DNA of 64,000 nt from Candidatus Harrisonbacteria bacterium (GTDB lineage Bacteria; Patescibacteriota; Minisyncoccia; UBA6257; 1-14-0-10-44-23). Numbering within the stretch: position 1 is the stretch's first letter; each line of letters starts with the position of its first letter. Shown piece by piece: positions 1 through 50,314 of this stretch. The position numbers and the translations under genes are program-made. The DNA is taken from positions 2,105 to 66,104 of the forward strand of contig JAHFLF010000003.1 of the NCBI GenBank assembly GCA_023255625.1. The letters run 5' to 3'. The notes beneath the pieces were generated by a model, which did not search any database, had not been told where the DNA came from, and saw only the letters and a program-made list of their open reading frames with translations.

Positions 1-492
1 CCGCGCTTTGCAGGCAAGCGGCTCTCTAATGCTCTGGCAATCCTAGCCATTCACCAACTAAAAAAACTAGAACGGTTTAACACGCATCGTCAAAAAACCG
101 CCGCACTATATCAGGAACTTCTTAGCCCTCTCTTTGTCTCCCACCAACTAACTAGCCAACTAGCTAATTTACCCGCCGCGGCGGGCCGACTAACTGATAA
201 GCCCATTTGGCTACGCTATACTATCTGGACTGACCACGCTGATCGAGTAAAGACGGAGTGCGCAAAACAAGGCATACTTTCGGGCGACTGGTATGATACC
301 CCAATCGCGCCGCGCGGCGTCAGCTATGAAAGAATCGGCTACAAACTTGGCAGCTGTCCGGTCGCAGAAAAAATAGCGGCGCGAACTATCAATCTGCCAA
401 CTGATATTCATATTTCAGAAAACGACGCGCAAAAAATCTGTAATATCATAACCACATTCTATGGAAACAGCAATACACCCACTAAACGATAA
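1..492 (+). CDS. DegT/DnrJ/EryC1/StrS-family aminotransferase, C-terminal part (5' end lies outside the window)
   Basis: Frame 1 is open from nt 1 to the TAA at 490-492. The translation ...WYDTPIAPRGVSYERIGYKLGSCPVAEKIAARTINLPT... matches the C-terminal region of sugar aminotransferases. It contains an in-frame QLTSQLANL segment encoded by the CAACTAACTAGCCAAC repeat. Confidence 0.55.
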   Translation, partial: PRFAGKRLSNALAILAIHQLKKLERFNTHRQKTAALYQELLSPLFVSHQLTSQLANLPAAAGRLTDKPIWLRYTIWTDHADRVKTECAKQGILSGDWYDTPIAPRGVSYERIGYKLGSCPVAEKIAARTINLPTDIHISENDAQKICNIITTFYGNSNTPTKR

Positions 493-1489
493 AAAAATCT
501 GGGACGATTTTGTCGGCGGCGTGCAGCCCAACACCTTTTTGCACTCCTGGCAGTGGGGTGAGTTCAATCAGGCGACCCAGCATGAGATACACCGTTTTGG
601 TATTTATGGAGGCGAATCCCTCCTCGCCGTCGCCCTAATATTATATGTTCGCGCTCGCCGCGGTCATTTTCTTTTCTGCCCGCACGGACCTATCTTCAAA
701 AACGATGTCGACGCGCCAGAAGTCATGGCCGCGCTCACGGACCGACTCGTAGATCTCGCTAAAGAAAAAAAGTGTGTACTGATCCGCATCAGCCCGCTGC
801 TGCCACCAACCAAACAGAACGATGAATTATTTTTCCAGCTCGGCTACCGCAACGCGCCAATCCACATGGCCCATCCAGAGCTCGGCTGGATTCTTGATCT
901 CACGGCGACCGAAGACAAGCTGCTTGCCGGCATGCGCAAAACCACGCGTTATTCGATCAAAAAAGCCGAGAAGGACGGAGTCACGGTGACAATGAGCACG
1001 GACAGTAAAGATGTCGAAACTTTCTGGCAGGTTTACCAGACCACTTTCGCTAGGCAGCACTTCACTCCTTTTTCTAAAGATTATCTGCGCGCTGAATTCG
1101 AAACATTCGCGCGGGATAACAATGCCGCGCTGTTCTTCGCGCATTACAAAGGAGATGTCACCGCCACCGCCCTGATCATTTTCGATGAACACAGTGCTTA
1201 TTACCACCACGCCGCCACAACCCAGAAACACGCCGGCCTCACTGATGCCCAGCTGCTGCAATGGCACATTATTCAAGAAGCAAAGCGCCGCGGCTGCTCA
1301 CAATACAACTTCTGGGGGGTAGTACCCGAGGACGGCAAAAGGCACCCCTGGACCGGTCTTTCGATCTTCAAGCGCGGCTTTGGCGGGCGCGAAGAGGCGT
1401 ATGTCCACGCCAAAGACCTAGTTCTCTCGCCACGATACTGGCTAACATATACAATTGAGATGACTAGGCGCTGGAAACGCCGACTTTAA
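461..1489 (+). CDS. FemAB-family peptidoglycan bridge-formation (aminoacyltransferase) protein
   Basis: 342 aa. Segments GIYGGESLLAVALILYVRARRGHFLFCPHGPIF and AHYKGDVTATALIIFDEHSAYYHHAATTQ..NFWGV resemble FemX/FemA/MurM GNAT-fold proteins. It overlaps the DegT stop by 32 nt. Confidence 0.65.
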   Translation: METAIHPLNDKKIWDDFVGGVQPNTFLHSWQWGEFNQATQHEIHRFGIYGGESLLAVALILYVRARRGHFLFCPHGPIFKNDVDAPEVMAALTDRLVDLAKEKKCVLIRISPLLPPTKQNDELFFQLGYRNAPIHMAHPELGWILDLTATEDKLLAGMRKTTRYSIKKAEKDGVTVTMSTDSKDVETFWQVYQTTFARQHFTPFSKDYLRAEFETFARDNNAALFFAHYKGDVTATALIIFDEHSAYYHHAATTQKHAGLTDAQLLQWHIIQEAKRRGCSQYNFWGVVPEDGKRHPWTGLSIFKRGFGGREEAYVHAKDLVLSPRYWLTYTIEMTRRWKRRL

Positions 1490-1492
1490 AAA

Positions 1493-2281
1493 ATGAAACC
1501 TAAATCTCAATCGCAACGAAAATTTTTCCGACGGATCCGTTGGTATGCAATTATTGGCGGCGTAATACTGCTTGTCTTGCTGCTTGCGTTATTAGTTGTT
1601 AGATCACCATTTTTTAAGATAAATGAAATGATTGTCGTCGGCGTACCGTCAGAACTGCAGACAAAAATTATTGCCGAGCTGACGATCAACATTCTTCGCA
1701 TTCCGCGTTCTGCAATACTTGGGCCCGATAATTATTTTAGCTGGCCGGAAAAATTTCCATATACCGCCGATGAGGCAACGATGATTTCTATCAAAAAAGA
1801 CCTTTTTGACCGAAAGATTACTTTGACCGTAACGCCGCGCCAGCGATATGCGGTCTGGTGTCAGGGGCAACCGGAGGAATCCTTAAATTGTTTCTGGATT
1901 GATCAACTCGGAGTTATTTTTGAATCAGCGCCAATTGCAGATGGGCAATTAGTCCGGACGATTTATTCTGCGAGTCCAATTGGCCGCCCACTAACCGGGA
2001 CGCCTATATTAGCTCAAGAGATTTTTTCCGTAATTAAAAAAACGCTCGATGGATTATCTTCACTAGATATCGGTCTAGAAAAAATTGAATACAAGCAATC
2101 GCTACAGGAATTGCATCTGATAACCTCTGGCGGCACATTGCTCATGATCAGCACCCGCTTTGACCCCTCACCAACTGTTTTGCCGTCAATTCGCCGGCTT
2201 AGCTCTAACCCCGGGTTAGATAAATTAACTTATATAAATTTGACCGTCGAGAATCGGGCGTATGTGAAGTACCGGCAATAG
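1493..2281 (+). CDS. FtsQ/DivIB-like cell division protein (basic N-terminus, one TM, POTRA-like region)
   Basis: 262 aa. Basic cytoplasmic N-terminus, a single TM helix (AIIGGVILLVLLLALLVV), then SPFFKINEMIVVGVP typical of the FtsQ POTRA start. It starts 3 nt after the FemAB-like stop. Confidence 0.4.
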   Translation: MKPKSQSQRKFFRRIRWYAIIGGVILLVLLLALLVVRSPFFKINEMIVVGVPSELQTKIIAELTINILRIPRSAILGPDNYFSWPEKFPYTADEATMISIKKDLFDRKITLTVTPRQRYAVWCQGQPEESLNCFWIDQLGVIFESAPIADGQLVRTIYSASPIGRPLTGTPILAQEIFSVIKKTLDGLSSLDIGLEKIEYKQSLQELHLITSGGTLLMISTRFDPSPTVLPSIRRLSSNPGLDKLTYINLTVENRAYVKYRQ

Positions 2282-2365
2282 TTAATTAGTTAGCTGGTTA
2301 GTTTGTTAGTTAGCAGAAACTCAACCCACCAACTAACTAGCTAACCAAGTAACGAACTAACCATG
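2281..2365. repeat. Imperfect hairpin array of TTAGTTAG / CTAACTAA units (member of the CAACTAACTAGC repeat family)
   Basis: gttaattagttagctggttagtttgttagttagc ... caccaactaactagctaaccaagtaacgaactaacc. The two arms are reverse complements built from TTAGTT units, and every frame contains TAG/TAA. It follows the FtsQ-like stop. Confidence 0.6.
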
Positions 2366-2803
2366 CTAACCTTTCCCAAAGACACCGCGCAAATTAGCTG
2401 GACGCGCCACATCAAAAACAAGATGGTTTTTTATCATTTAAGCGGAGCGCAAATTTTGCGCATTTTTCGTAAGCCGGACAGGCGTGAGGAGGGGATAGCG
2501 CCGCAAACAATCGCAGCGATGCAGACTAAGGTCGCAAATCGCATATCGCAAAGCGCAAATCGTCTAAATCAAAAACCGAGAGGGGAGGAAATTTGGATAA
2601 TGTACCGAATTAACTCAAAACAAATAACTCATAACAAACAACTGAAACAGGAGTCTCCGTTATTAGTTATGAGTGATAAGTCATTAGTTAATAAGAGTCG
2701 TGTGACTCTTATTTCCGCCTGGCGCTACCCCGGCACCACCAAGCCCGGCGAACGACCACCAATTCCGGAGGATGTGCTCGCGGAGCTTGAAAGTATCGGC
2801 TAA
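2363..2803 (+). CDS. hypothetical protein (C-terminus WRYPGTTKPGERPPIPEDVLAELESIG is encoded by the upstream copy of a direct repeat)
   Basis: 146-aa ORF with no recognisable family. Its last 27 codons lie in the ~80-bp repeat at 2705-2803, which is duplicated at 4258-4352. Confidence 0.35.
   Translation: MLTFPKDTAQISWTRHIKNKMVFYHLSGAQILRIFRKPDRREEGIAPQTIAAMQTKVANRISQSANRLNQKPRGEEIWIMYRINSKQITHNKQLKQESPLLVMSDKSLVNKSRVTLISAWRYPGTTKPGERPPIPEDVLAELESIG
2705..2803. repeat. Direct repeat copy 1 (~80 bp) flanking the HEHEH gene
   Basis: ctggcgctaccccggcaccaccaagcccggcgaacgaccaccaattccggaggatgt... is repeated with few mismatches at 4258-4352. Confidence 0.7.
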
Positions 2804-2824
2804 AATAGGTATTCTTCATTCAGA

Positions 2825-4249
2825 ATGAAAGATTATTTATCGATAGAAAAGTCGGCGCAGGAAGTAATACCACAACCTCCCAAGCAAAAGGATCCCTTAA
2901 CCATGAAGGGGGCGATTAGATCTGCGAAAGACAGTCTAGTTTCGTTAGCCAAAGAACAAAACACAAAAATTAATTTACGGCTCAAAGAATATTTTTTTAA
3001 AAAAGATTTAACTCCGGAAGATTTTGAAAAACTATTAGAGTTTGATTTCCAAGACGAACTGAACGACAATCCTCCTGTTGAGGGAACAAGATGGGAGAGG
3101 CACCATATAAAGTTTTTCCCATTCAGCATAGAAATTGATAGGATCAAAAAACTGCCCCGCGAAGAAAAAAGGATTGCGCTTGAAGAACTAAAAGACAAGC
3201 TAGCACGGCAAAGAAAAGCGCTGGCAATGTGCCGTGTTTTTCTGGAGCGATGTATTGAATTTAACAATGACTACCCGCTAGAAAAACTTCATATAATCGT
3301 TAATAAATTCCAAGAAAGCTACGGCTTCAATGATGACCAAAAATGGAGCTTTCATGATGCGATCAGTAAATACAGTAATAATCGCCAAAAAGTTCTTGCA
3401 GCGCGCAACGAATTCCAAAATGACGCGGAGCTGGTAAAACACATAACTGGCATTCCCGTGAAGGATGGCACAGTCCGTGTTTCGGTCGGCCCGATGACCA
3501 TTGATATATATACAGATACTTTCACGGCTGGACAAATTTTTGATCGTTCTATAGAACCAGTCACGACCGTAAGCGGGTTTTTTAATGCGAATGGACAGGA
3601 TATCCCATTTGGAGATGGCATTGCATTTACAGTCGTCAATACTGACAACATAAAAAGCGATAAAGCCACGGCAGCAGTACTCGAACACGAGCATGAGCAC
3701 TCAAAAAATCATCTTGTATTTAAAGAATTATTCGGCATAGACGGCCGCTACGCGAAAAACGGAAAATGGGACGAAAAAAATCCACAAAAAGACTTATCTG
3801 AAGAATATGTAAAATATGCATCAGAAAAAGACCCGGATATAAAGAAGGCGCTGCTTGAATCCTGCTTCGAAGTAGAGATCCAGTATGCTCTCGAATCTGC
3901 AAAAGATGAAATAACCGCAATACTAAAGGGTAATATGTACGGCGAAGACACACTCTCCTTTCTTCAAGATAATTTCAACGGTTATTTTCTGAACGGCGAA
4001 CATAACCATTACGATTATTTAAGAGAATTAAGAAATCGAGAAGATCAAAAAGATAATCCGGATTGGCAAGAACTGTCTCGTAAAATTCTTATCGACGAAT
4101 ACGCTTCAATTTTAACAAAAGCAGTCGAGGCAATTACACTGCTCATCAAACAAGGAAAATACTCTATTCAGGAAAGCATCGCGCTTCTGACCGATAAACC
4201 GATTGTCGAATGGCCCAAGACGGTTAAAAGAATGCTTGATGCTAAATAG
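2825..4249 (+). CDS. hypothetical AT-rich protein with an HEHEH (HExxH-type) putative zinc-metallopeptidase motif
   Basis: 474 aa with no signal peptide. Motif AAVLEHEHEHSKNHL. Visibly more AT-rich than the flanking genes. Bracketed by ~80-bp direct repeats at 2705-2803 and 4258-4352. Confidence 0.45.
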   Translation: MKDYLSIEKSAQEVIPQPPKQKDPLTMKGAIRSAKDSLVSLAKEQNTKINLRLKEYFFKKDLTPEDFEKLLEFDFQDELNDNPPVEGTRWERHHIKFFPFSIEIDRIKKLPREEKRIALEELKDKLARQRKALAMCRVFLERCIEFNNDYPLEKLHIIVNKFQESYGFNDDQKWSFHDAISKYSNNRQKVLAARNEFQNDAELVKHITGIPVKDGTVRVSVGPMTIDIYTDTFTAGQIFDRSIEPVTTVSGFFNANGQDIPFGDGIAFTVVNTDNIKSDKATAAVLEHEHEHSKNHLVFKELFGIDGRYAKNGKWDEKNPQKDLSEEYVKYASEKDPDIKKALLESCFEVEIQYALESAKDEITAILKGNMYGEDTLSFLQDNFNGYFLNGEHNHYDYLRELRNREDQKDNPDWQELSRKILIDEYASILTKAVEAITLLIKQGKYSIQESIALLTDKPIVEWPKTVKRMLDAK

Positions 4250-4257
4250 CTAGCGCG

Positions 4258-4352
4258 GATATATCGTGCTGGCGCTACCCGGGCACCACCAAACCCGGCG
4301 AACGACCACCAATTCCGGAGGATGTATTAGCTGAACTTGCCAATATTGATTA
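4258..4352. repeat. Direct repeat copy 2 (~80 bp) flanking the HEHEH gene; remnant encodes ...WRYPGTTKPGERPPIPEDVLAELANID* in frame 1
   Basis: ctggcgctacccgggcaccaccaaacccggcgaacgaccaccaattccggaggatgtattagctgaacttgccaatattgattaa. It is out of frame with the upstream gene, so it is not part of it. Confidence 0.7.
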
Positions 4353-4371
4353 AAAGGAATATGCTAAATTT

Positions 4372-4560
4372 AAACTCCAACAAGGAAAAAGTGGCAGCGT
4401 CGGTCCGACCGATGCGGTCTTCCACGCTTCGCTCCCATGCGAAGTCACTTCATCCCTAGTATCGCAAGGCGACCACTTCCTTGCGAGCGTAGACGGATCG
4501 GCGGACGGAACTCGGAAGCCGAAAGCCAATTCCGCGCACGCAGTTTTCCTTGTTGGAGCT
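4372..4560. repeat. GC-rich ~190-bp structured element closed by a perfect 15-bp inverted repeat (CTCCAACAAGGAAAA ... TTTTCCTTGTTGGAG) with internal hairpins
   Basis: The terminal inverted repeat is read directly from the sequence. Internal hairpins: CTTCGC/GCGAAG, TCGCAAGG/CCTTGCGA, CCGACCGATGCGG. It lies immediately upstream of ychF. Confidence 0.5.
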
Positions 4561-4627
4561 CTTCAGCATGTCGGGCTCGCGCACAACCTTTCTAATCAAT
4601 TGTGTTGCCGCGAGCCCTTACTTCATT

Positions 4628-5623
4628 ATGAAACTCTCCATCGGCATAGTCGGTCTGCCCAATGTCGGGAAATCTACACTCTTTAAACTGCTCACGAGCA
4701 ACGATATTTTGATTGCCAACTATCCATTCGCCACGATTGATCCGAATGTCGGCGTGGTTGCTGTTCCGGACGAACGAGTGGATAAACTGAACGAAATGAG
4801 CAAGTCAAAAAAAAGAATTCCGGCTATCGTCGAGTTTTACGACATCGCCGGACTGGTCAAGGGCGCGGCAACAGGGGAGGGGCTTGGTAATCAGTTTTTG
4901 ACGCATATTCGCGACACCAGCGCCATCGTTCAAGTACTGCGTTGCTTTGCGGGCGATGAGATTGTCCATGTTGAAAATTCTGTTGATCCAGTGCGCGACA
5001 TGGGCATCATTAACACCGAACTTGCACTCAAAGATTTAGAGACTGTTGAAAAACGGATTGTCAAAGCCAACGCCGAGGCGCGGTCAGGTAAAAAAGAGGC
5101 AATTAAAGAGGTGGAAATTCTGACGAAAGTGAAGGATGCGCTGTCGGCAGGGAAATCAATTCTTGAATTTGCATCTGATCCAACAGTAAGAGGTCTTTTC
5201 TTGCTGACCGCAAAACCAAAATTTTATTTATTGAATGGACAAGAAAGCGATGTACCGCCTGCACTCAAAGACGCTATCGCTGCAGAAAAAAGTACATATG
5301 TCGTTGCCGACCTAGCTACTGCCACAGAAATTCCGCAACTTATTCGCAAGGCCTACGAAATTCTAGGGCTTATTAGTTTTTTTACAACCGGCGAGGACGA
5401 AACACGGGCCTGGACGATCACGAAGGGGGATAAAGCCCCACAGGCCGCCGGCGTCATCCATACTGATTTTGAAAAAAAGTTTATCCGGGCGGAAACGGTT
5501 TCGTATAAAGATTTTGTTGAGTGTGGCGGCTGGTCAGCCGCCCGGTCAAAAGGCAAACTGCGTGTTGAAGGCAAAGAGTATGTAGTCGCCGACGGAGATA
5601 TTCTCGAGATCCGGCACTCGTAG
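4628..5623 (+). CDS. ychF: ribosome-binding ATPase YchF (Obg-family GTPase)
   Basis: MKLSIGIVGLPNVGKSTLF (P-loop) and a C-terminal TGS-like region. The ORF track starts at 4550, but the conserved N-terminus begins at the ATG at 4628. Confidence 0.85.
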   Translation: MKLSIGIVGLPNVGKSTLFKLLTSNDILIANYPFATIDPNVGVVAVPDERVDKLNEMSKSKKRIPAIVEFYDIAGLVKGAATGEGLGNQFLTHIRDTSAIVQVLRCFAGDEIVHVENSVDPVRDMGIINTELALKDLETVEKRIVKANAEARSGKKEAIKEVEILTKVKDALSAGKSILEFASDPTVRGLFLLTAKPKFYLLNGQESDVPPALKDAIAAEKSTYVVADLATATEIPQLIRKAYEILGLISFFTTGEDETRAWTITKGDKAPQAAGVIHTDFEKKFIRAETVSYKDFVECGGWSAARSKGKLRVEGKEYVVADGDILEIRHS

Positions 5624-5825
5624 AAGGTTGGGATTTTCGCAGACCGACACCGCCTATCTTTTTCTGCTGAAAAAGCGTCTGCTCTCGGCCCTCTTCGGGC
5701 CTGCGAGAGTGCCGCCTCGCATCAAACTTTACAGAAATTCTTCTCATTTCGGGAATAGAGAACTAATGCCAAAAAACGTGAAGGAGCAGAGCGCCCCATC
5801 ACGGACGACACTGCTCCTGTTGCTG

Positions 5826-6323
5826 CTAGCCCGGCCTAATGCCGGGGTGATCGAGGGGATCGGGTTGCCTACCCCTCCCTGGCCGACACTCTGCTGGCAC
5901 GACTAGCTGGCTGCCGAGCTGCCGAAACACATCACGAGACTCATCTGCAAGGATCAGAACGCGGCCCATGTCCGCCATCGGCTTAGTTCCAGCCGGCCAC
6001 ATCTCCCCGAGCCGGGAGTGTCGTGTATTGATGTACCCATCAACCGCGGTGGCTATCCTGGAAGAGATACCGCGAACAGACCTCTCCGGCCGGTCAAATG
6101 CGCCAGCGAACCGTAACGGACGCTCGGCCTCACCGAAGCCCCTCTGGTCCAGCATCGTGAAGAACATGGGGGCACGACCAAGGTAGGTCAGGATCGCTTC
6201 ATCATCCGAGAGCTCGACTACCGCCATGTCAAGGAGCAGCACGCCCTGGTCAATCATACGGCCAAGAAACTGCATGCCGGCAGCATACCTGCTCGGCCCG
6301 TCCAGAATGATCCACCGTGGCAT
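5826..6323 (-). CDS. hypothetical protein within a GC-rich island (coding status uncertain)
   Basis: 165-aa ORF in a ~0.7-kb high-GC segment (5630-6360). No recognisable family. Overlapping ORFs on other frames are typical of GC-rich DNA. Confidence 0.25.
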   Translation of the reverse strand: MPRWIILDGPSRYAAGMQFLGRMIDQGVLLLDMAVVELSDDEAILTYLGRAPMFFTMLDQRGFGEAERPLRFAGAFDRPERSVRGISSRIATAVDGYINTRHSRLGEMWPAGTKPMADMGRVLILADESRDVFRQLGSQLVVPAECRPGRGRQPDPLDHPGIRPG

Positions 6324-6537
6324 ACGCCACCTCTCTCTGAAGACCTTGCCCCGATGATTGGTGCGGGAGCACTCACCTCACGCCTGGCGCCAACGCGACT
6401 CCAGACGACCCCAGCATACACCGAGGGATTACAAACCTTCTTTAACCTACTCTCGAATAATTATAGCGTCAAATCCCCGTGGTATACTGTATTTATTCGC
6501 GTTATTACCTTCCCATTCGCATTATCAGCGATTACTC

Positions 6538-7518
6538 ATGGATATTGTCTTCAGTCAAATAGTTCTAGCTGGCTCAATCGCCGTGATTATCAGTCTGATT
6601 GTCCGGCGTATCGGAAAAAAATGGCTTGCCCGAGAAAATTGGGTTCGGCTTTTATTCGTTATCCCCGAAGGAACAGTCAATCCTTTGGCTGTACATGACC
6701 AACATGAAATCGCGCTTTCTGCAGAACTTTACAAGCGCTTCAAAGAGCTCGGCATCCCATTCGGGCTTGAAGTAGTAGTGCAACTGCTCGGTGAAGAAAT
6801 TTATTTTTATATTATTGTTCGCAAAACCGATGCTCACCATGCCCATCAATTAATAGAAACACTTTGGCCGACTGGATATCTAAACGAATCAGAAGATTAC
6901 GATTTGTGGAGTAGCGGCAGTACCGCAATAAACCAAGCAACAGGCGCGTATCTGACATTACGAAACCCCTATAGTATTCCGCTTAAAATGGCTTCTAAGG
7001 GCAATTTTGAGCCATTCCTGGAGCTTTTAGCTAAGCTATCCCGACTATCTCCAGTAGGCGAGGGGGCAGCTATACAAATTATTACGCGACCAGCCAGTCA
7101 ACACCTACTACAGGCCGTTGGTACATATCTGCAAAAACTTGAATCCGGTCAGTATAGCCCTTCTAAATATATTCATGAAGAATTTATCATCACACCAGAA
7201 ACCGTTAAACTCGTCAGGAAAAAAGTGAGTTCACCGCTTTTTTCTGTTAATTTTCGAATCGTAACAAGTCATTCCCGCGGCGAAGCAGTCCGAATTTTAA
7301 GGACTATCACCGACCACCTGGAGAAAAAGTCTCATGACGAGCATCAGCAATATAATGAATTTGTCGCAAAAATTCCGAAGGATCAAAAATATTTCATAAA
7401 TGAATTTTTAAGATATACATTTGAACCAGCGCAGGAGATTGTTATGAGTGCCGATGAGCTGGCTACATATTTTCATTTTCCCGGTCCAACGACTGCCGGC
7501 GCAAAGATTAAGAGATAA
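6538..7518 (+). CDS. hypothetical membrane-anchored protein
   Basis: Begins MDIVFSQIVLAGSIAVIISLIV (N-terminal TM). The upstream 60 codons of the tracked ORF lie in the GC island and were discarded. No family recognised. Confidence 0.4.
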   Translation: MDIVFSQIVLAGSIAVIISLIVRRIGKKWLARENWVRLLFVIPEGTVNPLAVHDQHEIALSAELYKRFKELGIPFGLEVVVQLLGEEIYFYIIVRKTDAHHAHQLIETLWPTGYLNESEDYDLWSSGSTAINQATGAYLTLRNPYSIPLKMASKGNFEPFLELLAKLSRLSPVGEGAAIQIITRPASQHLLQAVGTYLQKLESGQYSPSKYIHEEFIITPETVKLVRKKVSSPLFSVNFRIVTSHSRGEAVRILRTITDHLEKKSHDEHQQYNEFVAKIPKDQKYFINEFLRYTFEPAQEIVMSADELATYFHFPGPTTAGAKIKR

Positions 7519-7622
7519 TTTTCAATTCTCAATTTCTAGTTTCTAAACAATTTCCAATTTAAAAATTCAGAAATTAAAACATTGTTTGGAAATTGAAAAT
7601 TATAAATTATAAATTAATGAAC
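7519..7622. repeat. AT-rich ~100-bp repeat cassette, copy A (family shared with 57325-57435 and the 23S helix-25 insert)
   Basis: ttttcaattctcaatttctagtttctaaacaatttccaatttaaaaattcagaaattaaaacattgtttggaaattgaaaattataaattataaatt. Internal palindrome AAACAAT..ATTGTTT. A TTGAAA ... A/T-rich stretch sits just before the downstream ATG, so it is probably a promoter. Confidence 0.6.
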
Positions 7623-7624
7623 CT

Positions 7625-7963
7625 ATGGATGGCCTTCCTCAACACCACATAAGTCTGCGCAAGCGTCTGTACGGCCGGCTTGAAGCATATCCGCACCCTA
7701 ACAAACTCAAACGTCGGGTAGACGACTTAGCATATATTTTTGGTATTGCGATACCGCTTTTCACTATTCCGCAGCTCTATGAAATTTGGAGTCACCATAA
7801 TGCAGGTAATAATTCGCTTATCACCTGGGGCGCATTCAGTATCTCATCGCTGTTTTGGCTTTTTTATGGTATCCTCCACAAAGTAAAGCCCGTTATTATT
7901 AGTCAATCGTTGTGGTTTATTTTACAACTTTTGATTGTTATAGGTATTCTTCTCTATAACTAA
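7625..7963 (+). CDS. SemiSWEET / PQ-loop family small sugar transporter
   Basis: 112 aa with three predicted TM helices and the PQ motif (FTIPQLYEIWSHH). Confidence 0.5.
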   Translation: MDGLPQHHISLRKRLYGRLEAYPHPNKLKRRVDDLAYIFGIAIPLFTIPQLYEIWSHHNAGNNSLITWGAFSISSLFWLFYGILHKVKPVIISQSLWFILQLLIVIGILLYN

Positions 7964-8346
7964 TGAGTATGGAAAAATTTACAGCATCAGTCATAAGAGG
8001 AAAGGGGAGAGGCAAAAAAACAGTTGGCTTTCCGACTTTTAATTTAATCGTCCCTGAAAAACTCGTAATGAAGGAGGGCGTATATGCCTGTCTTGTTTGG
8101 ATAGATGGAAAAGAATACCGCGGCGCGATGCATTACGGGCCGACGCCAACCTTCGACGAGCAAGAAAAAGTTTTGGAAATTTTTGTTCTTAATTTTGAGG
8201 ATGGGGGACAGTCGATTGCGGAACTGAAATTCGAAGTCGGCCCATATCTGCGACCGGTTGCAACATTTCTAACACCCGAAGCTCTGCGCCACCAGATTGC
8301 CTTAGATGTACAACGGGTGCGTAAGACAAAACTTTTGATTTCTTAA
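7963..8346 (+). CDS. riboflavin kinase domain protein (RibF C-terminal-like)
   Basis: 127 aa. GKGRGKKTVGFPTFNL ... GVYACLVWIDGKEYRGAMHYGPTPTF ... LEIFVLNFE ... matches riboflavin kinase motifs. Confidence 0.65.
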   Translation: MSMEKFTASVIRGKGRGKKTVGFPTFNLIVPEKLVMKEGVYACLVWIDGKEYRGAMHYGPTPTFDEQEKVLEIFVLNFEDGGQSIAELKFEVGPYLRPVATFLTPEALRHQIALDVQRVRKTKLLIS

Positions 8347-19596: not shown

Positions 19597-20117
19597 CACG
19601 ATATTCTTGCGAATACTTTTCCCCTCTCACGAGGAGCGTAGACTATATCTTGACCCACCCTAAATCGCTTTTGCGACCGGGTAAAGGGTCTCGGCATCTT
19701 ACAAATGCAGCCCTGTCTGCGAAACATATCGCAAACTTTCTGGAACTACATAAGTCCGCCCGTTATCCCGCTGTTAGCGGAACCGGAACAAGTCGTTACG
19801 GGGTCAAGCGCGAAATACGCGCAAGTTGAAAGTTTATCAAGTTTATAAAGTTATAAAGTAGAAACGGAAACCCGCATCCACTTGATGAACTTTACAAACT
19901 TTCAACTTTACAAACTTGCGTGCTTTGCACGCCGACTTCCCACGGTATTGTCTTATTACTTTTCTGGTCCTCAAGCTTGTACGCCTTTGGCGTATAAATT
20001 GTACCACGCGTTTGAGGACTAACTCTCGCTTGGTTATCAACAGACCAGACCGTCATAAGATTCCACCGTTATTAGCCGAATTTTCATCACGCATTACTGC
20101 ATGAAGTAGCAAACTTT
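19597..20117 (-). ncRNA. group I intron A (ORF-less, ~521 nt) in the 23S sarcin-ricin loop region (between U2656 and A2657, E. coli numbering, inferred)
   Basis: P7/P9.0 core AAGATATAGTCTACGC on the minus strand. Removing 19597-20117 reconstitutes CCTAGT|ACGAGAGGACCGG. It contains a copy of the AAGTT composite palindrome (19806-19933). Confidence 0.6.
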
Positions 20118-20315
20118 ACTAGGATCGACTCTCCTCCGATACCATACGCCTGCAACAGATAGAGACCAACCTGTCTCACGACGGTTTGAACCCAGCTCAC
20201 GTGCCCTTTTAATTGGCGAACAGACAAACGCTTGGGAGCTTCTTCACCCCCGCGCTAGGGCGAGCCGACATCGAGGTGCCGAGCGTTGCCGTCGATAGGA
20301 ACTCTCGAGCAACAC

Positions 20316-20350
<35 letters not shown>

Positions 20351-20705
20351 TCTTTGTGCTTTCTATAAAGCAACATCGGGTCACTAAGTTCTGCTTTCGC
20401 ATCGGCGCGACTTGTAGGTCTTGCCGTTAAGCCAGCATGTGCCTTTACACGTTCAGCCCGATTTCCATCCGGGCCAAGCTGACCTTAATAAACTCCTCCG
20501 CTACTCTTTAGGCTTGTTGTTAGTTGCATGCATCATTTCTGTGCATCGCTTCATGTCGCCATGAAGGTCAGACTATATCTTCAGCATATCCGGATATGAT
20601 TGCTGTTTGGCGTATAGTCGTTGAGGACTCTCTTATTGAAGCTGAAAGAAGGAGTGAAATAAATAATTAATACATAATAACTACTTCACGTCCACGCGAT
20701 GCGTG

Positions 20706-20781
20706 TGGTGGGCTCTGAAGGACTTAAACCTCCGACCTCCTGGATTTCAACCAGGTGCTCTAGCAGCTGAGCTAAGAGCCC
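20706..20781 (-). ncRNA. tRNA-like structure 1 inside intron B: full cloverleaf with a Phe(GAA) anticodon arm and encoded CCA, but the D/T tertiary invariants are altered
   Basis: Minus strand: GGGCTCT TA GCTC AGCTGCTA GAGC A CCTGG TTGAAAT CCAGG AGGTC GGAGG TTTAAGT CCTTC AGAGCCC A CCA. C19 and U56 replace G19/C56. T-loop is TTTAAGT. Confidence 0.5.
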
Positions 20782-20797
20782 ACTTGTTCGCATTTTT

Positions 20798-20889
20798 TGG
20801 AGCGGGCGAGAGGATTCGAACCTCTACCCTATCGCCGCCAAAGCCCTTGCGGGCTCAAGGGGCTTGCCCTGCCGTTAGACCACGCCCGC
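20798..20889 (-). ncRNA. tRNA-like structure 2 inside intron B: class II-like (long extra arm) with canonical acceptor, D and T arms but an aberrant anticodon region
   Basis: Minus strand: GCGGGCG TG GTC TAACGGCAG GGC A AGCCCCTTGAGCCCGCAAGGGCT ... AGAGG TTCGAAT CCTCT CGCCCGC T CCA. U8, GG in the D-loop and T-loop TTCGAAT are present. No 5-bp stem plus 7-nt anticodon loop can be drawn. A GCAA-tetraloop hairpin AGCCC/GGGCT occupies the region. Confidence 0.4.
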
Positions 20890-21407
20890 TCCGTTACAAC
20901 ATTGCTTGCGATTTTCCTCCTTCTTTCAACTTCAATAAGGTTGCCTGCTGATTGTCCGCATCGATCTTGAATTTTTACCCTTTTCGACAAGAGGTATCAA
21001 GATATGCCCGGATATTCCAGCATATAGCCAAATTTTTTACCGTTAACCCCCATATGCGCAGAGGCACATATATACTTGAGGATAACGCCCCATTAAAACT
21101 GCCCACCAGGCACTGTCCCGCGACGTTTTTGCCGTCGAGGTTAGAATCTAAAATTTTACAGATGGCTGTTTCATTGTTGGATCCATGTCTCCCGAAAGAG
21201 ACACTTCAAATCCTCGCCACTACGCTACGCAGTAAAATCCTAGAGCCAATACCAAGCTACAGTAAAGCTCCCGGGGTCTTTTCGTCTTGCTGCAGGTACC
21301 CAGCGTCTTCACTGGACTCGCATTTTCACCGAGCTCTTCGTTGAGACAGTTCTCCACTCGTTACACGATTCGTGCGCTTCGGAACTTACCCGAAAAGGAA
21401 TTGCGCT

Positions 21408-21956
21408 CACTATTGTTACTATCCGCCAGCTTGCGGACGGATGAATATTTCTATTCACCTCTATGCATTACTGCACAGGTCGGACTATATCTTCATATAT
21501 GCGTTATCAGGCGCATACTGTTCGGCGTGTAGTCTCTACAGGGTCATATTGAAGCTGAAAGAAGGATGCGAAGTGTATCGCTACTCCTTCGTATCCGCGC
21601 GGAAGGCGCGAAAGAGAGGTGACGGGTCTCATGTATTTACCCGCATTGCAATAAAGACTCGTAGTCTTTAATCTTGAGGCAACCGGCTCGCCCCGAATTG
21701 CACTGCAGCCCTTGCGGGTTCTGCAGGAAGCAGCCATACCATCCGAAGGCAACAGGCTCGAGTAGTCTGGTGGACGCTGTGCGCCACTCGAATCTCTTCC
21801 GCCTACATCGGAGCTAACCCTTGCTTCTCACACCCCTCTCATTTTCCTTCTTTCAACTTCAATAGACTTCCCTCGGTATTGTCCAAGACAAAATTTCCTT
21901 TCCTATATTCTTGGATGTTCACCGATATAGCCAAATTTTACTAAGGCAAGCAATTC
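21408..21956 (-). ncRNA. group I intron C (ORF-less, ~549 nt) at 23S helix 69, site L1917 (inferred)
   Basis: P7 3'/P9.0 AAGATATAGTCCGACC plus P9 hairpins GGTGAATAGAAATATTCATCC and TCCGCAAGCTGGCGGA. Removing the intron joins ...TAACTATAATCGTTCTAAGGT|AGCGCAATTCC, which matches the E. coli sequence CUAAGGU|AGCGAAAUUCC. Confidence 0.65.
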
Positions 21957-22004
21957 ACCTTAGAACGATTATAGTTATCGCTGACATTGACGAGGGCTTC
22001 GGGC

Positions 22005-22130
22005 AGTGCGCATGCCCTGCGCACAAGTCGCAAGTTTATCAAGTTCTTCAAGCTCGAAAGTAGAAACCGGAATTCGGCCTTACTTGATAAACTTGATGAA
22101 CTTTTTACTTGACGAACTGTGTGCAGAGCA
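22005..22130. repeat. AAGTT composite palindromic element, copy in the 23S helix 68 region
   Basis: GCGCACAAGTCGCAAGTTTATCAAGTTCTTCAAG ... CTTGATAAACTTGATGAACTTTTTACTTGACGAACTGTGTGC, flanked by small GCGCA..TGCGC hairpins. It replaces about 25 nt of E. coli sequence with about 135 nt. Confidence 0.6.
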
Positions 22131-22261
22131 CACACCCACCGTTAACCTTCTCGCATCGGTCACGTGTCACCCCCTATACATCCTCTTGCGAGTTAGCAGG
22201 GAGTTGTGTTTTTGATAAACAGTCGGCAGAGATACTTTCGCTGCGGCCCCGCGCGCACAGC

Positions 22262-22391
22262 GCGCAAGTCACAAGTTTATCAAGTTCATAAAGTTATAAA
22301 GTAGAAACGGGAATCGCTTCCGGTATTCACTTGATGAACTTTACGAACTTTCAACTTGATGAACTGCGTGCTGCGCACGCCGGGCAGGCCT
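22262..22391. repeat. AAGTT composite palindromic element, copy replacing 23S helix 63; about 85% identical to the copy inside intron A
   Basis: gcgcgcacagcgcgc + caagtcacaagtttatcaagttcataaagttataaagtagaaac...cacttgatgaactttacgaactttcaacttgatgaactg + cgtgctgcgcacgcc. Confidence 0.6.
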
Positions 22392-23595
22392 TATTGCTAA
22401 CTTACGGCCGCTTTTTTGCCGAGTTCCTTAACGAAGATTCACTCGTTCCCCTGAGGATACTCTCCTCACCCACCAGTGTCGGTTTACGGTACGATGCACA
22501 TGTTCTAAACTTAGAAGTTTTTCTTGGAAGGCTATTCTGCTGTATTAGTCTTGGAAAACCAAAACCTTATCGGAACGCGCGCACTACTACATTAAAGTAA
22601 GCTACCCGGATTTACCTGGATAACAGTGCTTATCGTCCTAAACGCCAAACCATTAAGGCGCACAGCTCTATGTCCTCCGTCACTCCATCGCACAAACATG
22701 CGCGGGCCGGAATATTAACCGGCTTCCCATTAGCTACGGTTCTCACCATTGCCTTAGGATCGCCTAACCCGCGGTTGATTGCCATTGCCGCGGAAACCTT
22801 GGATTTTCGGGGTACGCGTTTCTCACGCGTATTGTGGTTACTTGTGCCAACATTCTCTCTTCCAAACGCTCCACGGGCTCTCACGAGTCCCGCTTCACAG
22901 CTATATTCGTCCTTCAACGAATGATTGGAATGCTCTCCTACCGCGCCACCTGATAAATCAAGTGACACCCGCAATTTCGGTACTATGTTTAGCCCCGGTA
23001 CATTTTCGGCGCAGTCGCCCTCGAATAGTGAGTTGTTACACACTCTTTAAAGGATGGCTACCTCTAAGCCAACCTCCTATCTGTCTATGGGAAACTACTA
23101 CCTTTAACACTTAACATAGATTTAGGGACCTTAATTTGCGATCTGGGCTCTTCCCCTCGCGACCATGGAGCTTTGCCCCCACAGTCTAACTAGCTAGACG
23201 TTTTATGTGAGTATTCGGAGTTTAACTGAAATGTCGCCCTTTCGGGCTGTACACCTCAACTAGTAGCTCTACCCCTCACATGATGTCTCTAGCCGCTAGT
23301 CCGAAAACTATTTCGGAGAGAACCAGCTATTACCAAGCTCGATTAGCTTTTCACTTCTTATCCCAAGTCATCCCAGGGTTTTGCACAACCCACGAGTTCG
23401 GTCCTCCATAGGATTTTACTCCTACTTCAACCTGCTCAGGACAAGCTCGCCTTGGCTTCGGGTCTTATGTATGCCGCTTATTGTCGCGCTATTAACACTC
23501 GGTTTCCCTACGCCTCCACCGCCGAAGCGGCTTAGACTAATGCGACACACATAAACTCGTTGGCTCATTCTTCAATAGGCACATAGTCACCCCAC

Positions 23596-23735
23596 GCGCA
23601 CCTCACTGCTGTGACGTGCGCAATTTTCAATTACCAATTTTCAATTTTCAAACAATTTTGAAATTAATCAATTGTTTAGAAATTAGAAATTAGAAATTAG
23701 AAATTGCGCACTCTCACGACAGTGAGATGCGCGCT
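23596..23735. repeat. Insertion in 23S helix 25 region: AT-rich cassette (same family as 7519-7622 and 57325-57435) closed by GC-rich inverted repeats
   Basis: gcgcacctcactgctgtgacgtgcgc | aattttcaattaccaattttcaattttcaaacaattttgaaattaatcaattgtttagaaattagaaattagaaattagaaatt | gcgcactctcacgacagtgagatgcgcgc. Confidence 0.6.
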
Positions 23736-23798
23736 GGGGGCTCCTATTCATTGTAAGCGTACGGTTTCAGGTACTATTTCACCGCCCTTACCGGGCTG

Positions 23799-23839
<41 letters not shown>

Positions 23840-23935
23840 TGAAGTGTATTTAGCCTTACCGGATAGTACCGGTATGTTCCCGCATAGTTTATTTGCCACG
23901 CGGTACTCTAGAAATCTCATATTGCTACAAGACCA

Positions 23936-24195
23936 GTCCTGTATGTCACATATGCCGCGAAATGCGGAAGCATTAAAATTGTCGAGACCGCGACGCGAGT
24001 GGCGAGACATATGGCTATGCCATAAGCTCGACGCTCGCAACAAAGGTATCGACAATTTTAATGCTTTGACGGGCTAATTTTTGCCTGATTCTTTGTTGCT
24101 TGTCGTAGCCATAGCTAAAGCTATTGTCTACTCCGCGCGCCTAGAATCATGCCAAAATTCGCACCGCCGCATTCGTGTCATATGTGACATACAGG
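23936..24195. repeat. ~260-375-nt insertion in 23S domain I (between E. coli positions ~200 and ~460) with nested perfect inverted repeats
   Basis: Outer 17-bp inverted repeat: cctgtatgtcacatatg (23936-23952) / catatgtgacatacagg (24179-24195). Inner 16-bp inverted repeat: gcattaaaattgtcga (23967-23982) / tcgacaattttaatgc (24046-24061). There is an rRNA-length excess of about 375 nt here. Confidence 0.6.
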
Positions 24196-24694
24196 ACAAA
24201 AAACGAGAGTCAGAACTGTTTTCGCATACTGGGCTATCACCATCTTTGGCGCGTCTTTCCAGGCGCTTCTGCTAACAGACTGTTTTTTAACTCTCTTTTT
24301 ACAAATCACGCAGCAGCCGTAAAGCTGCTCCGTGAAAAGTAAAAGTGTTTTTCTCTAAACCCCCAAAAGATTTATTGCTAAATCCCTCGAGTTTGGGCTC
24401 TTCCGTTTTCGCTCGCCGCTACTAACGGAATACAATTTGTATCTTTTCCTCTGGTTACTGAGATGTTTCACTTCACCAGGTTGACGAACGCATCACTTAT
24501 GTATGCGAACTATGTCGGGTTACGACATAAGGTTTCCCCATTCGGAAATCTCCGGATCACAGGTTGCTAACACCTCCCCGAAGCTTATCGCAGCTACGCC
24601 ACGTCCTTCATCGCCACTTCATGCCAAGGCATCCACCGTACGCCCTTTAACGCTCTGACGCATGTCAGAGCTCACTAACCACATAATGCTCAAG

Positions 24695-27583: not shown

Positions 27584-27700
27584 GGTAGGTAGTTAGCTAG
27601 TTAGTTGGTTACTTTGTTAGTTAGTTTAATACGGAAACGCTTTACTGCAAATTTCTTGACTGACTAACCGTCGACCGACTAACTGGCGACTACTCCGTCT
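27584..27700. repeat. TTAGTTAG / CTAACTAG hairpin array in the metG 5' region (member of the CAACTAACTAGC family)
   Basis: ggtaggtagttagctagttagttggttactttgttagttag ... gactgactaaccgtcgaccgactaactgg. Confidence 0.55.
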
Positions 27701-41578: not shown

Positions 41579-42181
41579 CTAATCGCGCTTCGCACGCCGT
41601 CTCGCAGCCAACCTCAATTCGGGGCCGAGATAAGATTCCACCGGCAAACCCATTGCCGCGAGACGCCCGAACAGATGGCGACGAGCTCGCGACAGAGCCA
41701 TGCCGAAGGCCTCCGGCCGAAGTCCGCAGGCAGCAGCTGCAGCTAGGTTGTTCTCATGAACTTCCAGCATTCGGATAACCAGCTGCTCATGCGGCGTGAG
41801 CTTAGCCAGTTCTATCAGCACCACCTGCCGTAATTCGACATCGCAGAGATCGCCTGCCGGATCGTCTGCTTGCCGACTCGCGGCCTGTATTTTCGCCACC
41901 TTCTCCATCCATCGCAACCTTACATTCCGCTGACGTAGTTCCTCGAGAAAAAAGTTCTTGCACAGCGTGACGAGCAGGCCGATGGCGCTTAGACGGATTG
42001 TGTTTCGCTTGGCGTAGCTTAGATAACGCAGGACCGCCTGCTGGAAATGCTCGTCGAACTCCTCAAGGGACATATGAACATTCTGCCTCTTCAAGGTGCA
42101 ATGTACAGATCTCTTGACCATGAGATACAGCTCTGAATCAGAAAGAGCAGCAAGGAGCTGCTCGTGCGTCAGCAACTCCAT
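41579..42181 (-). CDS. sigma-70 family (ECF-like) RNA polymerase sigma factor
   Basis: Region 2-like and region 4 HTH (LTPHEQLVIRMLEVHENNLAAAAACGLRPEAFGMALSRARRHL). Start placed at MELLTHEQ. Confidence 0.5.
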   Translation of the reverse strand: MELLTHEQLLAALSDSELYLMVKRSVHCTLKRQNVHMSLEEFDEHFQQAVLRYLSYAKRNTIRLSAIGLLVTLCKNFFLEELRQRNVRLRWMEKVAKIQAASRQADDPAGDLCDVELRQVVLIELAKLTPHEQLVIRMLEVHENNLAAAAACGLRPEAFGMALSRARRHLFGRLAAMGLPVESYLGPELRLAARRRAKRD

Positions 42182-42279
42182 CACTCCCTCCTTCTGGAGA
42201 AAAAGTCTGGATCCCCGCATTACCCGCATTCAATGTATCTTACGGCCTCTAAATTTGCAAACTAAGGTATTATAGAACT

Positions 42280-50206: not shown

Positions 50207-50290
50207 TTGCAAAAACCTCCTGATTATCTTAGTTAGAAAATATGAATTTTGCACAAAGGGAGCACTAAATCTTATGTGCTCATCTTGTGC
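50207..50290. terminator. Long perfect hairpin (28-bp stem) between purB and folD; putative terminator or attenuator
   Basis: ttagttagaaaatatgaattttgcacaa ... ttgtgcaaaattcatattttctaactaa. Confidence 0.4.
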
Positions 50291-50314
50291 AAAATTCATA
50301 TTTTCTAACTAAAT

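What the first reader, a model, noticed from the sequence alone, without database searches (positions are those of the whole stretch)
2281..4627. AT-rich accessory segment: HEHEH-motif protein bracketed by ~80-bp direct repeats
Between the FtsQ-like gene and ychF lie, in order: a TTAGTTAG hairpin array; a 146-aa ORF; an AT-rich 474-aa ORF with an HEHEH (HExxH-type) motif and no signal peptide; a second ~80-bp copy of the sequence that encodes the last 27 residues of the 146-aa ORF; and a GC-rich 190-bp element closed by a perfect 15-bp inverted repeat. The direct repeats (2705-2803 and 4258-4352, with a few mismatches) look like the product of insertion or recombination of the 474-aa gene into the 3' end of the upstream gene. 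Together with the compositional shift, this argues for a recently acquired cargo gene, possibly a zinc-dependent peptidase/effector or toxin-like protein.
Basis: partly seen in the sequence, partly recalled or inferred. Interest (0 to 1): 0.6.

Follow-up and report, generated by a model that had tools for sequence, protein, structure and literature searches.

The report
Inserted putative zinc peptidase gene
In this Patescibacteria genome, recombination placed a gene for an uncharacterised, probably zinc-dependent peptidase behind a conserved small gene and left a stranded second copy of that gene's last 30 codons; this is a clean case of gene gain, not a new kind of element.

Summary
The 474-aa gene (2825-4249) is a lineage-specific insertion. 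Relatives keep the order FtsQ-like, p146, spacer, ychF without it. None of 80 other species has a homolog within 5 kb of p146. Its homologs sit in unrelated contexts elsewhere.

The bracketing repeats (about 2708-2820 and 4258-4370; 85% identity over 87 nt) are two versions of the p146 3' end. Copy 2 cannot be translated, yet in the conserved 26 codons the copies differ at 8 synonymous codons and 1 non-synonymous codon. They therefore diverged as working genes in two related lineages. This points to recombination with foreign DNA anchored on p146, not to in-place duplication.

The protein belongs to a large unannotated family (908 clusters at 50% identity; no Pfam or NCBIfam model). Its only invariant residues are H288, E289, H292 and E362, a gluzincin-type HExxH...E signature. 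No known peptidase family or solved fold matches it significantly.

Nothing supports a toxin, an effector or a self-mobile element. The TTAGTTAG hairpin is a genome-wide repeat word. The GC-rich element lies outside the repeats, folds strongly and remains unexplained. Overall interest is modest.

The parts
1493..2281 (+). FtsQ-like bitopic membrane protein (262 aa). Native left neighbour.
   Evidence: ORF. N-terminal membrane helix, KD 3.07 at residues 18-36. No Pfam hit. It lies directly upstream of p146 in most related loci.
2281..2362 (.). Imperfect long hairpin built from TTAGTTAG/CTAACTAA words. Genome-wide intergenic repeat word, not part of the insertion.
   Evidence: MFE -25.8 kcal/mol, z -4.9. 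Word enriched, 6 versus 1.26 expected. Similar copies at 27592-27624 and 31863-31896. Only chance-level miRNA-hairpin matches in Rfam.
2363..2803 (+). p146: conserved small protein of Patescibacteria. It is the anchor or target gene of the recombination.
   Evidence: 88 homologs in the protein database. 574 of 599 candidate stretches in GTDB species genomes are relatives. Conserved blocks are WTRHIKNKM..., EEIWIMY and ISAWRYPGxTKPGERPxIP. Only a weak DUF4258 signal, 3 of 28 members, best E 0.007.
2609..2692 (.). 40-nt imperfect inverted repeat inside the variable loop of p146, made of the same TTAGTTA-type words.
   Evidence: I1. Fold z -2.8. The loop is of variable length or absent in homologs.
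2708..2820 (+). Repeat copy 1: the in-use last 31 codons of p146, its stop codon and about 17 nt beyond.
   Evidence: GC3 0.65. Promoter-like TTGAAA-17-TATTCT at 2787-2815 (consensus match only).
2825..4249 (+). p474: the inserted gene, a member of an unannotated HExxH...E family and a putative cytoplasmic zinc metallopeptidase.
   Evidence: 46 homologs, none more than 45% identical. 908 clusters by profile search. No Pfam, NCBIfam, PADLOC or PHROG model. AlphaFold2 pLDDT 84, pTM 0.83. GC 0.396.
3686..3700 (+). HEHEH. H288, E289 and H292 form the HExxH motif on the predicted helix 279-297.
   Evidence: Invariant in 85 diverse homologs. Helix assignment.
3908..3910 (+). Codon of E362, the candidate third zinc ligand, in KDEITA on the predicted helix 337-369.
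   Evidence: Fourth and last invariant column among 85 homologs. Helix assignment. Spatial proximity to the His pair was not measured.
4258..4370 (+). Repeat copy 2: an orphan, untranslatable p146 3' fragment (DISCWRYPGTTKPGERPPIPEDVLAELANID*, stop at 4350-4352) plus about 17 nt.
   Evidence: It has no start codon, has in-frame TGA and TAA just upstream, and is out of frame with p474. Core of 26 codons: 8 synonymous and 1 non-synonymous differences, pS 0.40, pN 0.05. GC3 0.45. Promoter-like TTGCCA-17-TATGCT at 4337-4365.
4375..4558 (+). GC-rich, strongly folding element closed by a perfect 15-bp stem. It lies outside the repeats, in the native spacer position. Function unknown.
   Evidence: I5. 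RNA MFE -83.3 kcal/mol, z -5.6 on the + strand and z -4.4 on the - strand. No Rfam hit. Single copy, with homologs only in same-species contigs. Not matched by covariance model R1.
4573..4617 (+). GC-rich hairpin directly upstream of the ychF start codon.
   Evidence: MFE -21.8 kcal/mol, z -4.3. Relatives have a terminator-like hairpin at the same place.
4628..5623 (+). ychF GTPase. Native right neighbour.
   Evidence: Pfam YchF-GTPase_C 2e-37 and MMR_HSR1 2e-18. 88% identical to the L006 ortholog.

Best explanation
The native locus is FtsQ-like gene, p146, a structured spacer, then ychF.

Inferred event: a DNA fragment from a related but distinct Patescibacteria lineage entered the slot behind p146. 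The fragment carried the 3' end of that lineage's own p146 next to a 474-aa gene. It entered either by recombination anchored on p146 homology with an illegitimate join at the other end, or by single-crossover integration of a circular fragment.

Shown result: p146 remains intact with one version of its last 31 codons. It is followed 21 nt later by the new gene. After that comes a stranded, untranslatable second version of the same 31 codons, and then the original spacer and ychF.

Inferred function of the cargo: a soluble cytoplasmic protein of a large unannotated Patescibacteria family. It has an N-terminal helical domain, a small beta-sheet followed by a helix carrying HExxH, a downstream helix carrying an invariant Glu, and a C-terminal helical bundle. 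It most likely binds zinc through H288, H292 and E362 and hydrolyses peptide bonds with E289 as the general base, like a gluzincin. Its substrate is unknown.

The gene does not move itself. It is probably expressed with p146 or from promoter-like hexamers in the repeat tail.
For: Insertion:
- The same gene order without p474 occurs in L006/L011 (281-nt spacer), L012, L018, L020, L021, L022, L023 and L127.
- None of 80 GTDB species loci holding p146 has a p474 homolog within 5 kb.
- p474 homologs lie in unrelated contexts, for example between a ferredoxin gene and a superoxide dismutase gene in a suf cluster. No neighbour family is shared by more than 4 of 37 loci.
- The slot behind p146 holds different content in each relative.

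Repeats are two alleles:
- They are 85% identical over 87 nt.
- Copy 2 cannot be translated.
- In the 26 conserved codons there are 8 synonymous and 1 non-synonymous differences. pS is 0.40 and pN is 0.05. Of 20,000 random-substitution trials, none gave 1 or fewer non-synonymous codons.
- Each copy is closer to the other (84% nt) than to any of 84 relatives (79% or less).

Not an assembly artefact: the arrangement is identical in independent assemblies ERZ27297344 and ERZ27280176, and a Logan contig of the same species runs into p146.

Peptidase reading:
- H288, E289, H292 and E362 are the only invariant columns in 85 homologs that are 23-40% identical to the query.
- The AlphaFold2 model (pLDDT 84) puts strands at 217-272, the HExxH on helix 279-297 and E362 on helix 337-369.
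- Weak, non-significant matches lean towards zincins: Peptidase_M48 around the motif in one fused homolog (E 0.007), and M3 peptidase and SprT as viral fold hits.
- There is no membrane helix or signal peptide.

Mechanism precedent: homology-facilitated illegitimate recombination, and the stranding of 3' fragments in Rhs and T6SS loci (PMC5361080).
Against: - No donor arrangement (p146 next to p474 in another lineage) was found in 132 loci. The nearest p474 homolog is only about 45% identical.
- I cannot tell which repeat copy is the foreign one. GC3 values (copy 1 0.65, copy 2 0.45, p474 0.38, p146 N-terminus 0.58) hint that copy 2 travelled with p474, but the samples are tiny.
- The compositional deviation of p474 is only about 1.5 SD.
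- The peptidase assignment rests on a motif and a predicted topology. There is no significant hit to any Pfam or NCBIfam model, any PDB sequence or any PDB fold.
- The best Foldseek hits to the catalytic half were nucleotidyltransferases, at probability 0.35 or less.
- The closeness of E362 to the two His residues in the model could not be measured.
Confidence: 0.7

Rival explanations
1. In-place tandem duplication of the p146 3' end, followed by neutral decay of the unused copy. The 474-aa gene arrived or arose independently.
For: The two copies are each other's closest relatives. Copy 2 carries a change at the nearly invariant Ala119.
Against: Neutral decay should produce mostly non-synonymous changes. 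Observed: 8 synonymous and 1 non-synonymous codon, with no frameshift or stop in 31 codons (p < 5e-5 by simulation). pS of 0.40 is too large for a fragment that otherwise looks undamaged.
Confidence: 0.07
2. p474 is ancestral in this slot and was lost in all sampled relatives. The repeat is unrelated to its presence.
For: The nearest sampled relatives are distant (FtsQ-like 45-47% identity, p146 60-68%), so many losses are possible in principle.
Against: None of about 85 p146 loci has p474 nearby. p474 homologs share no synteny. The bracketing repeat is a positive insertion footprint. The slot contents differ in every relative.
Confidence: 0.08
3. The segment is a self-mobile element. In this reading p474 is a new kind of recombinase or transposase, and the repeats are attachment sites or a target duplication. 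Alternatively, the GC-rich element with its 15-bp terminal inverted repeat is a MITE.
For: Direct repeats bracket the gene here and, in a different form, in L001. The GC-rich element has a perfect 15-bp inverted repeat. A 14/15 copy of its arm lies inside the p474 3' end.
Against: Only 1 of 17 other loci with 500 nt or more on both sides shows flanking repeats. There is no integrase, transposase or terminal inverted repeat at the segment ends. There is no phage or defence link. The conserved residues form a zincin motif, not a recombinase motif. The GC-rich element is single-copy in 64 kb, is absent from other genomes, and has no target-site duplication.
Confidence: 0.05
4. p474 is not a peptidase. 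On this reading the HExxH...E residues bind a metal for another reaction, for example a nucleotidyltransferase-like or other hydrolase activity, or they have a structural role.
For: No significant similarity to any peptidase family. The top Foldseek hits for the catalytic half are Pol-beta-type nucleotidyltransferases, at probability 0.35 or less.
Against: The nucleotidyltransferase-type Gly and Asp positions (G222, D227) are not invariant in the wider family, whereas H, E, H and E are. The order sheet, HExxH helix, Glu helix is the zincin layout.
Confidence: 0.25

Closest known systems
Gluzincin metallopeptidases (MEROPS clan MA(E): HExxH plus a downstream Glu ligand, e.g. families M48, M13, M3)
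   Same: An invariant HExxH on a helix preceded by a beta-sheet, and an invariant Glu on a later helix 70 residues downstream. That spacing is comparable with M48 and M13 (my own knowledge of those families). Soluble, about 450 aa.
   Different: No detectable sequence or fold relationship to any of these families. A long N-terminal helical domain and a C-terminal helical bundle of its own. So far the family has been seen only in Patescibacteria-type contigs.
Homology-facilitated illegitimate recombination, and displacement of 3' modules in Rhs, CDI and T6SS effector loci (PMC5361080 and references therein)
   Same: Foreign DNA anchored by a conserved stretch of a resident gene. The new gene is placed downstream and an orphaned older 3' fragment is pushed further downstream.
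   Different: The anchor gene is a conserved housekeeping-like small protein, not a polymorphic toxin. Its C-terminus is conserved, not variable. There is only one orphan fragment and no immunity gene.
Integrative islands that insert into the 3' end of a tRNA or protein gene and restore it with their own copy
   Same: The target gene stays intact, and imperfect direct repeats of its 3' end bracket the insert.
   Different: No integrase or excisionase, only one cargo gene (1.55 kb), and no recurrence of the pattern at other p474 loci.
DUF4258 (PF14076) small proteins, as a lead for p146 only
   Same: Size and the order of conserved blocks. 3 of 28 family members give weak DUF4258 matches (best E 0.007).
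   Different: Below Pfam thresholds. p146 is syntenic with the FtsQ-like gene in hundreds of species and carries a conserved C-terminal peptide, PGxTKPGERPxIPxDxLxEL.

Membership tests
Zincin / gluzincin metallopeptidase | HExxH motif, conserved, on an alpha-helix | tested here: met
   H288, E289 and H292 are invariant in 85 homologs. They lie on predicted helix 279-297.
Zincin / gluzincin metallopeptidase | Third zinc ligand (Glu) on a downstream helix, next to the His pair in space | tested here: inconclusive
   E362 is the only other invariant residue and lies on helix 337-369.
Zincin / gluzincin metallopeptidase | Mixed beta-sheet whose edge strand precedes the active-site helix | tested here: met
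   Predicted strands 217-221, 226-230, 251-255 and 267-272, directly before helix 279-297 (repeated in the half-length model).
Zincin / gluzincin metallopeptidase | Significant sequence or fold similarity to a recognised peptidase family | tested here: not met
Zincin / gluzincin metallopeptidase | Zinc binding and peptide-bond hydrolysis | not testable with these tools
   Needs biochemistry.
Recombination-mediated gene insertion (HFIR or Campbell type) | Empty site in related genomes with the same flanking genes | tested here: met
   L006/L011, L012, L018, L020, L021, L023 and L127 have FtsQ-like, p146, spacer and ychF without p474.
Recombination-mediated gene insertion (HFIR or Campbell type) | Duplicated anchor sequence bracketing the insert, with the copies derived from two alleles | tested here: met
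   87 nt at 85% identity. 8 synonymous and 1 non-synonymous codon differences, although copy 2 is untranslatable.
Recombination-mediated gene insertion (HFIR or Campbell type) | A donor lineage with p146 and p474 adjacent | tested here: not met
   Not found in 80 GTDB p146 loci, 34 metagenome p474 loci or the look-ups. Sampling is sparse.
Self-mobile element (IS, MITE or integrase island) | Recombinase or transposase gene, terminal inverted repeats, target duplication, and multiple copies or recurrence | tested here: not met
   No such gene or segment-end inverted repeats. Repeats flank only 1 of 17 other p474 loci. The GC-rich element is single-copy.
Secreted effector / polymorphic toxin | Secretion signal or secretion-system neighbour, adjacent immunity gene, variable toxin domain | tested here: not met
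   No signal peptide or membrane helix. No conserved neighbour. No PADLOC or PHROG match.
Known RNA families (Rfam 15), for the GC-rich element 4375-4558 | Covariance-model match | tested here: not met
   No match at E <= 1 in 1-8000, and none at gathering score in the window or in 10 related loci.

The most novel reading that the evidence does not exclude
p474-type genes may spread among Patescibacteria as small passenger cassettes. Each cassette would carry a piece of a conserved host sequence (here the p146 3' end; in L001 a tRNA leader) as a homology handle for RecA-dependent capture after DNA uptake. That would be a recombinase-free mode of gene mobility. In the same reading, p474 founds a structurally new gluzincin-like peptidase family specific to these reduced bacteria. 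The evidence does not exclude this: 2 of 18 testable loci show bracketing repeats of local sequence, and the family has no structural neighbour.
Probability: 0.12. Interest if true: 0.6.

Novelty: new variant of a known kind. Interest (0 to 1): 0.33.

Why it matters
The locus is a well-resolved example of how streamlined Patescibacteria genomes gain single genes without mobile-element machinery. The stranded but codon-clean gene fragment records that the donor was a related lineage.

It also flags a large protein family (about 900 clusters at 50% identity) whose only invariant residues form a zinc-peptidase signature. The family has no Pfam or NCBIfam model and no recognisable solved fold, so it is a reasonable target for structural and biochemical work.

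It does not reveal a new class of element or a toxin system.

Tried and rejected

2. Family naming. Pfam, NCBIfam, PADLOC and PHROGs, run on the protein and on 46-85 homologs, gave no recurrent family. Extra domains in long fused homologs (TPR, FHA with PP2C, weak DnaJ) suggest intracellular roles but no function.

3. Phage or plasmid origin. There was no match in INPHARED phages or IMG/VR.

4. Conserved partner gene. Neighbour clustering over 37 loci found none.

5. General association of p474 with flanking repeats. Only L001 shows it.

6. Homologs of the GC-rich element. blastn and nhmmer over 132 loci, Rfam, and a covariance model built from the equally placed L013/L015 element (R1) gave no cross-match. 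MITE reading rejected: single copy, no target duplication.

7. Translation of copy 2 by read-through or frameshift from p474. Rejected because TAG read-through stays in the wrong frame, in-frame stops lie just upstream of copy 2, and there is no slippery site.

8. Same-species empty-site allele. None was found. A short Logan contig ends inside the repeat, which is explained by the 32-nt identical stretch.

9. The 165-aa GC-rich ORF downstream of ychF has no homologs.


Full report
**Observation**

- An FtsQ-like bitopic membrane protein gene lies at 1493-2281.
- An 82-nt hairpin of TTAGTTAG/CTAACTAA words follows at 2281-2362. It folds at -25.8 kcal/mol, z = -4.9.
- A 146-aa ORF ('p146') lies at 2363-2803.
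- A 474-aa ORF ('p474') lies at 2825-4249, with HEHEH at residues 288-292 (nt 3686-3700).
- A second copy of the p146 3' end follows.
- A 184-nt GC-rich element at 4375-4558 is closed by a perfect 15-bp stem.
- ychF lies at 4628-5623 (Pfam).

The direct repeat is real. The stretches 2710-2820 and 4260-4370 are 78% identical over 111 nt. The core is 85% identical over 87 nt, E = 1e-23.

p474 is AT-richer than average. Its GC is 0.396 and its GC3 is 0.379, against 0.48 +/- 0.055 and 0.50 +/- 0.10 for 42 long ORFs of the window. The native FtsQ-like gene and p146 are also below average, so composition is weak evidence.

**The genome and the native locus**

Homologs of all these genes come from Patescibacteria (CPR) assemblies.

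p146 is a widespread small protein. 574 of 599 candidate stretches in GTDB species genomes are relatives. It has conserved N-terminal, central (EEIWIMY) and C-terminal (ISAWRYPGxTKPGERPxIPxDxLxEL) blocks, separated by loops of variable length.

In most of the closest loci p146 directly follows the FtsQ-like gene. In the nearest relatives ychF follows 190-650 nt later. Locus L006/L011 (GCA_964549935; YchF 88% identical) has DegT, FemAB, FtsQ-like, p146, a 281-nt spacer, ychF, DUF8128, PQ-loop and flavokinase. This is the window's order without p474.

**p474 is an insertion**

- None of 80 GTDB loci centred on p146, and none of four further close relatives, has a p474 homolog within about 5 kb.
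- p474 homologs sit in unrelated places. One lies between a ferredoxin gene and a superoxide dismutase gene in a suf cluster (L003-L005). Another lies next to tRNA genes (L001).
- Clustering of neighbours over 37 loci found no family shared by more than four loci.
- The slot behind p146 is a turnover site. It holds a 194-aa membrane ORF in L126, about 500 nt of non-coding sequence in L127, a helix-turn-helix ORF in L128 and small ORFs in L008 and L125.
- The arrangement is identical in independent assemblies of the same species, so it is not a chimeric contig.

**What the repeats say**

Copy 2 (4258-4352) would encode DISCWRYPGTTKPGERPPIPEDVLAELANID*. It has no start codon, it has TGA and TAA in frame just upstream, and it is out of frame with p474.

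In the 26 conserved codons the two copies differ at 11 nucleotides in 9 codons. Eight of those codons are synonymous and one is not. pS is 0.40 and pN is 0.05. In 20,000 random-substitution trials, none gave one or fewer non-synonymous codons.

A fragment that cannot be translated cannot have been kept codon-clean where it now sits. The divergence must therefore have accumulated while both versions were working gene ends, in two lineages. This step is an inference, but a strong one.

The copies are closer to each other (84% nt) than to any of 84 relatives (79% or less), so the donor was a fairly close relative.

Two mechanisms fit. One is homology-facilitated illegitimate recombination, with an anchor in p146 and an illegitimate joint near 4258. 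The other is single-crossover integration of a circular fragment carrying a p146 3' end and p474. The first has precedent, including the stranding of older 3' modules in Rhs and T6SS loci (PMC5361080).

I could not decide which copy is foreign. GC3 values (copy 1 0.65, copy 2 0.45, p474 0.38) weakly suggest that copy 2 came with p474. No donor arrangement was found.

**What p474 is**

It has no Pfam, NCBIfam, PADLOC or PHROG match. Its nearest homologs are 40-45% identical.

A profile search of 1.84 billion representatives found 908 clusters at E <= 1e-3 and 266 at E <= 1e-30. In an alignment of 85 diverse members (23-40% identical to the query) exactly four columns are invariant: H288, E289, H292 and E362.

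The AlphaFold2 model (pLDDT 84, pTM 0.83) shows these features:
- an N-terminal helical domain;
- four strands at 217-272;
- a helix at 279-297 bearing HExxH;
- a disordered loop;
- a helix at 337-369 bearing E362;
- a C-terminal helical bundle.

This is the gluzincin layout (my own knowledge of clan MA). The protein has no signal peptide or membrane helix.

No solved structure or known family matches significantly. Weak hints point to M48, M3 and SprT and, for the catalytic half, to nucleotidyltransferases. The nucleotidyltransferase-type Gly and Asp positions are not invariant in the wide family.

Some homologs are fused to TPR repeats or to FHA and PP2C domains, which suggests intracellular roles.

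I put about 0.6 on a zinc metallopeptidase. Nothing supports a toxin or an effector.

**The other two features**

The TTAGTTAG hairpin is one instance of a genome-wide word family. The word occurs 6 times against 1.26 expected, and related copies lie at 27592-27624, 31863-31896 and 50215-50325. It is not part of the insertion.

The GC-rich element lies outside the repeats, where relatives also carry strongly folding GC-rich spacers followed by a hairpin before ychF (z from -3 to -6.6). It folds at -83.3 kcal/mol, z = -5.6.

The element has no Rfam match. It has no homolog outside the species. A covariance model of the L013/L015 spacer does not hit it. With a single sequence, covariation cannot be tested. 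It may be a fast-evolving ychF leader or a small RNA, and this stays unexplained.

**Verdict**

The insertion-by-recombination reading is supported and sharpened: the repeats come from two alleles. The peptidase motif is supported. The toxin or effector reading, and membership of the hairpin and the GC-rich element in the cargo, are not supported.

The finding is a clean but ordinary gene gain. Its cargo belongs to an unannotated, probably zincin-like family.

Noticed in passing
window 95-130; 2609-2692; 2281-2362; 27592-27680; 31863-31896; 50215-50325: Genome-specific TTAGTTAG/CTAACTAA word hairpins occur between genes and also in frame inside coding sequence. They form the variable loop of p146. 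In the DegT aminotransferase they encode a 10-aa insertion (LTSQLANLPA) that three relatives lack. Relatives use different word families in the same p146 loop. This looks like palindromic repeat elements tolerated within protein loops.
   Followed up: partly
window 20042-24659 (-), especially 20500-21078: The 23S rRNA gene spans 4618 nt against a 2925-position model. A 579-nt insertion near model position 2290 scores as a group I intron (20549-21075). The intron itself contains a strong tRNA-Phe(gaa) at 20706-20781 and a tRNA-Lys(ctt)-like sequence at 20798-20889. The 3' terminal helices of the 23S also appear shortened.
   Followed up: partly
window 5624-6537: A GC-rich stretch (GC 0.57, peaks of 0.63) lies between ychF and the DUF8128 gene and is absent from relative L006. 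Its 165-aa minus-strand ORF (5826-6323, GC3 0.68) has no homolog in 5.8 billion proteins other than itself. It is a second lineage-specific insertion, with the opposite compositional bias to p474.
   Followed up: partly
L001 5500-5717 and 7793-7965: In another Patescibacteria contig, direct repeats of about 220 nt (70-94% identical) bracket a block of tRNA-Arg, a p474 homolog and a receiver-domain gene. The repeats are the upstream leaders of tRNA-Arg and tRNA-Pro. This is the only other p474 locus, of 17 testable, with flanking repeats.
   Followed up: partly
window 30256-31458 (-), 48659-50122 (-), 41579-42229 (-): Other compositional outliers. A 400-aa ORF with GC 0.65 and GC3 0.84 has no Pfam hit. 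An adenylosuccinate-lyase-like ORF has GC 0.645 and GC3 0.80. The genome background is GC 0.48.
   Followed up: no
window 50215-50325: A near-perfect hairpin of about 40 bp (-48.2 kcal/mol, z = -11.7) lies between two genes and is capped at both ends by the TTAGTTAG word.
   Followed up: no
window 4145-4159 versus 4375-4389 and 4544-4558: A 14-of-15 match to the left arm of the GC-rich element lies inside the 3' end of p474, so it could pair with the element's right arm instead. It may be chance: 6 matches at 3 or fewer mismatches against 2.6 expected.
   Followed up: no
L013 6588-6746, L015 5828-5978, L018 and L020 (about 5470-5700), L006 5433-5712, L127 3078-3586: Relatives carry strongly folding, GC-rich, mutually unalignable non-coding spacers, each ending in a terminator-like hairpin, between p146 (or its neighbour) and ychF. 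Only the pairs L013/L015 and L018/L020 are alignable. None matches Rfam.
   Followed up: partly
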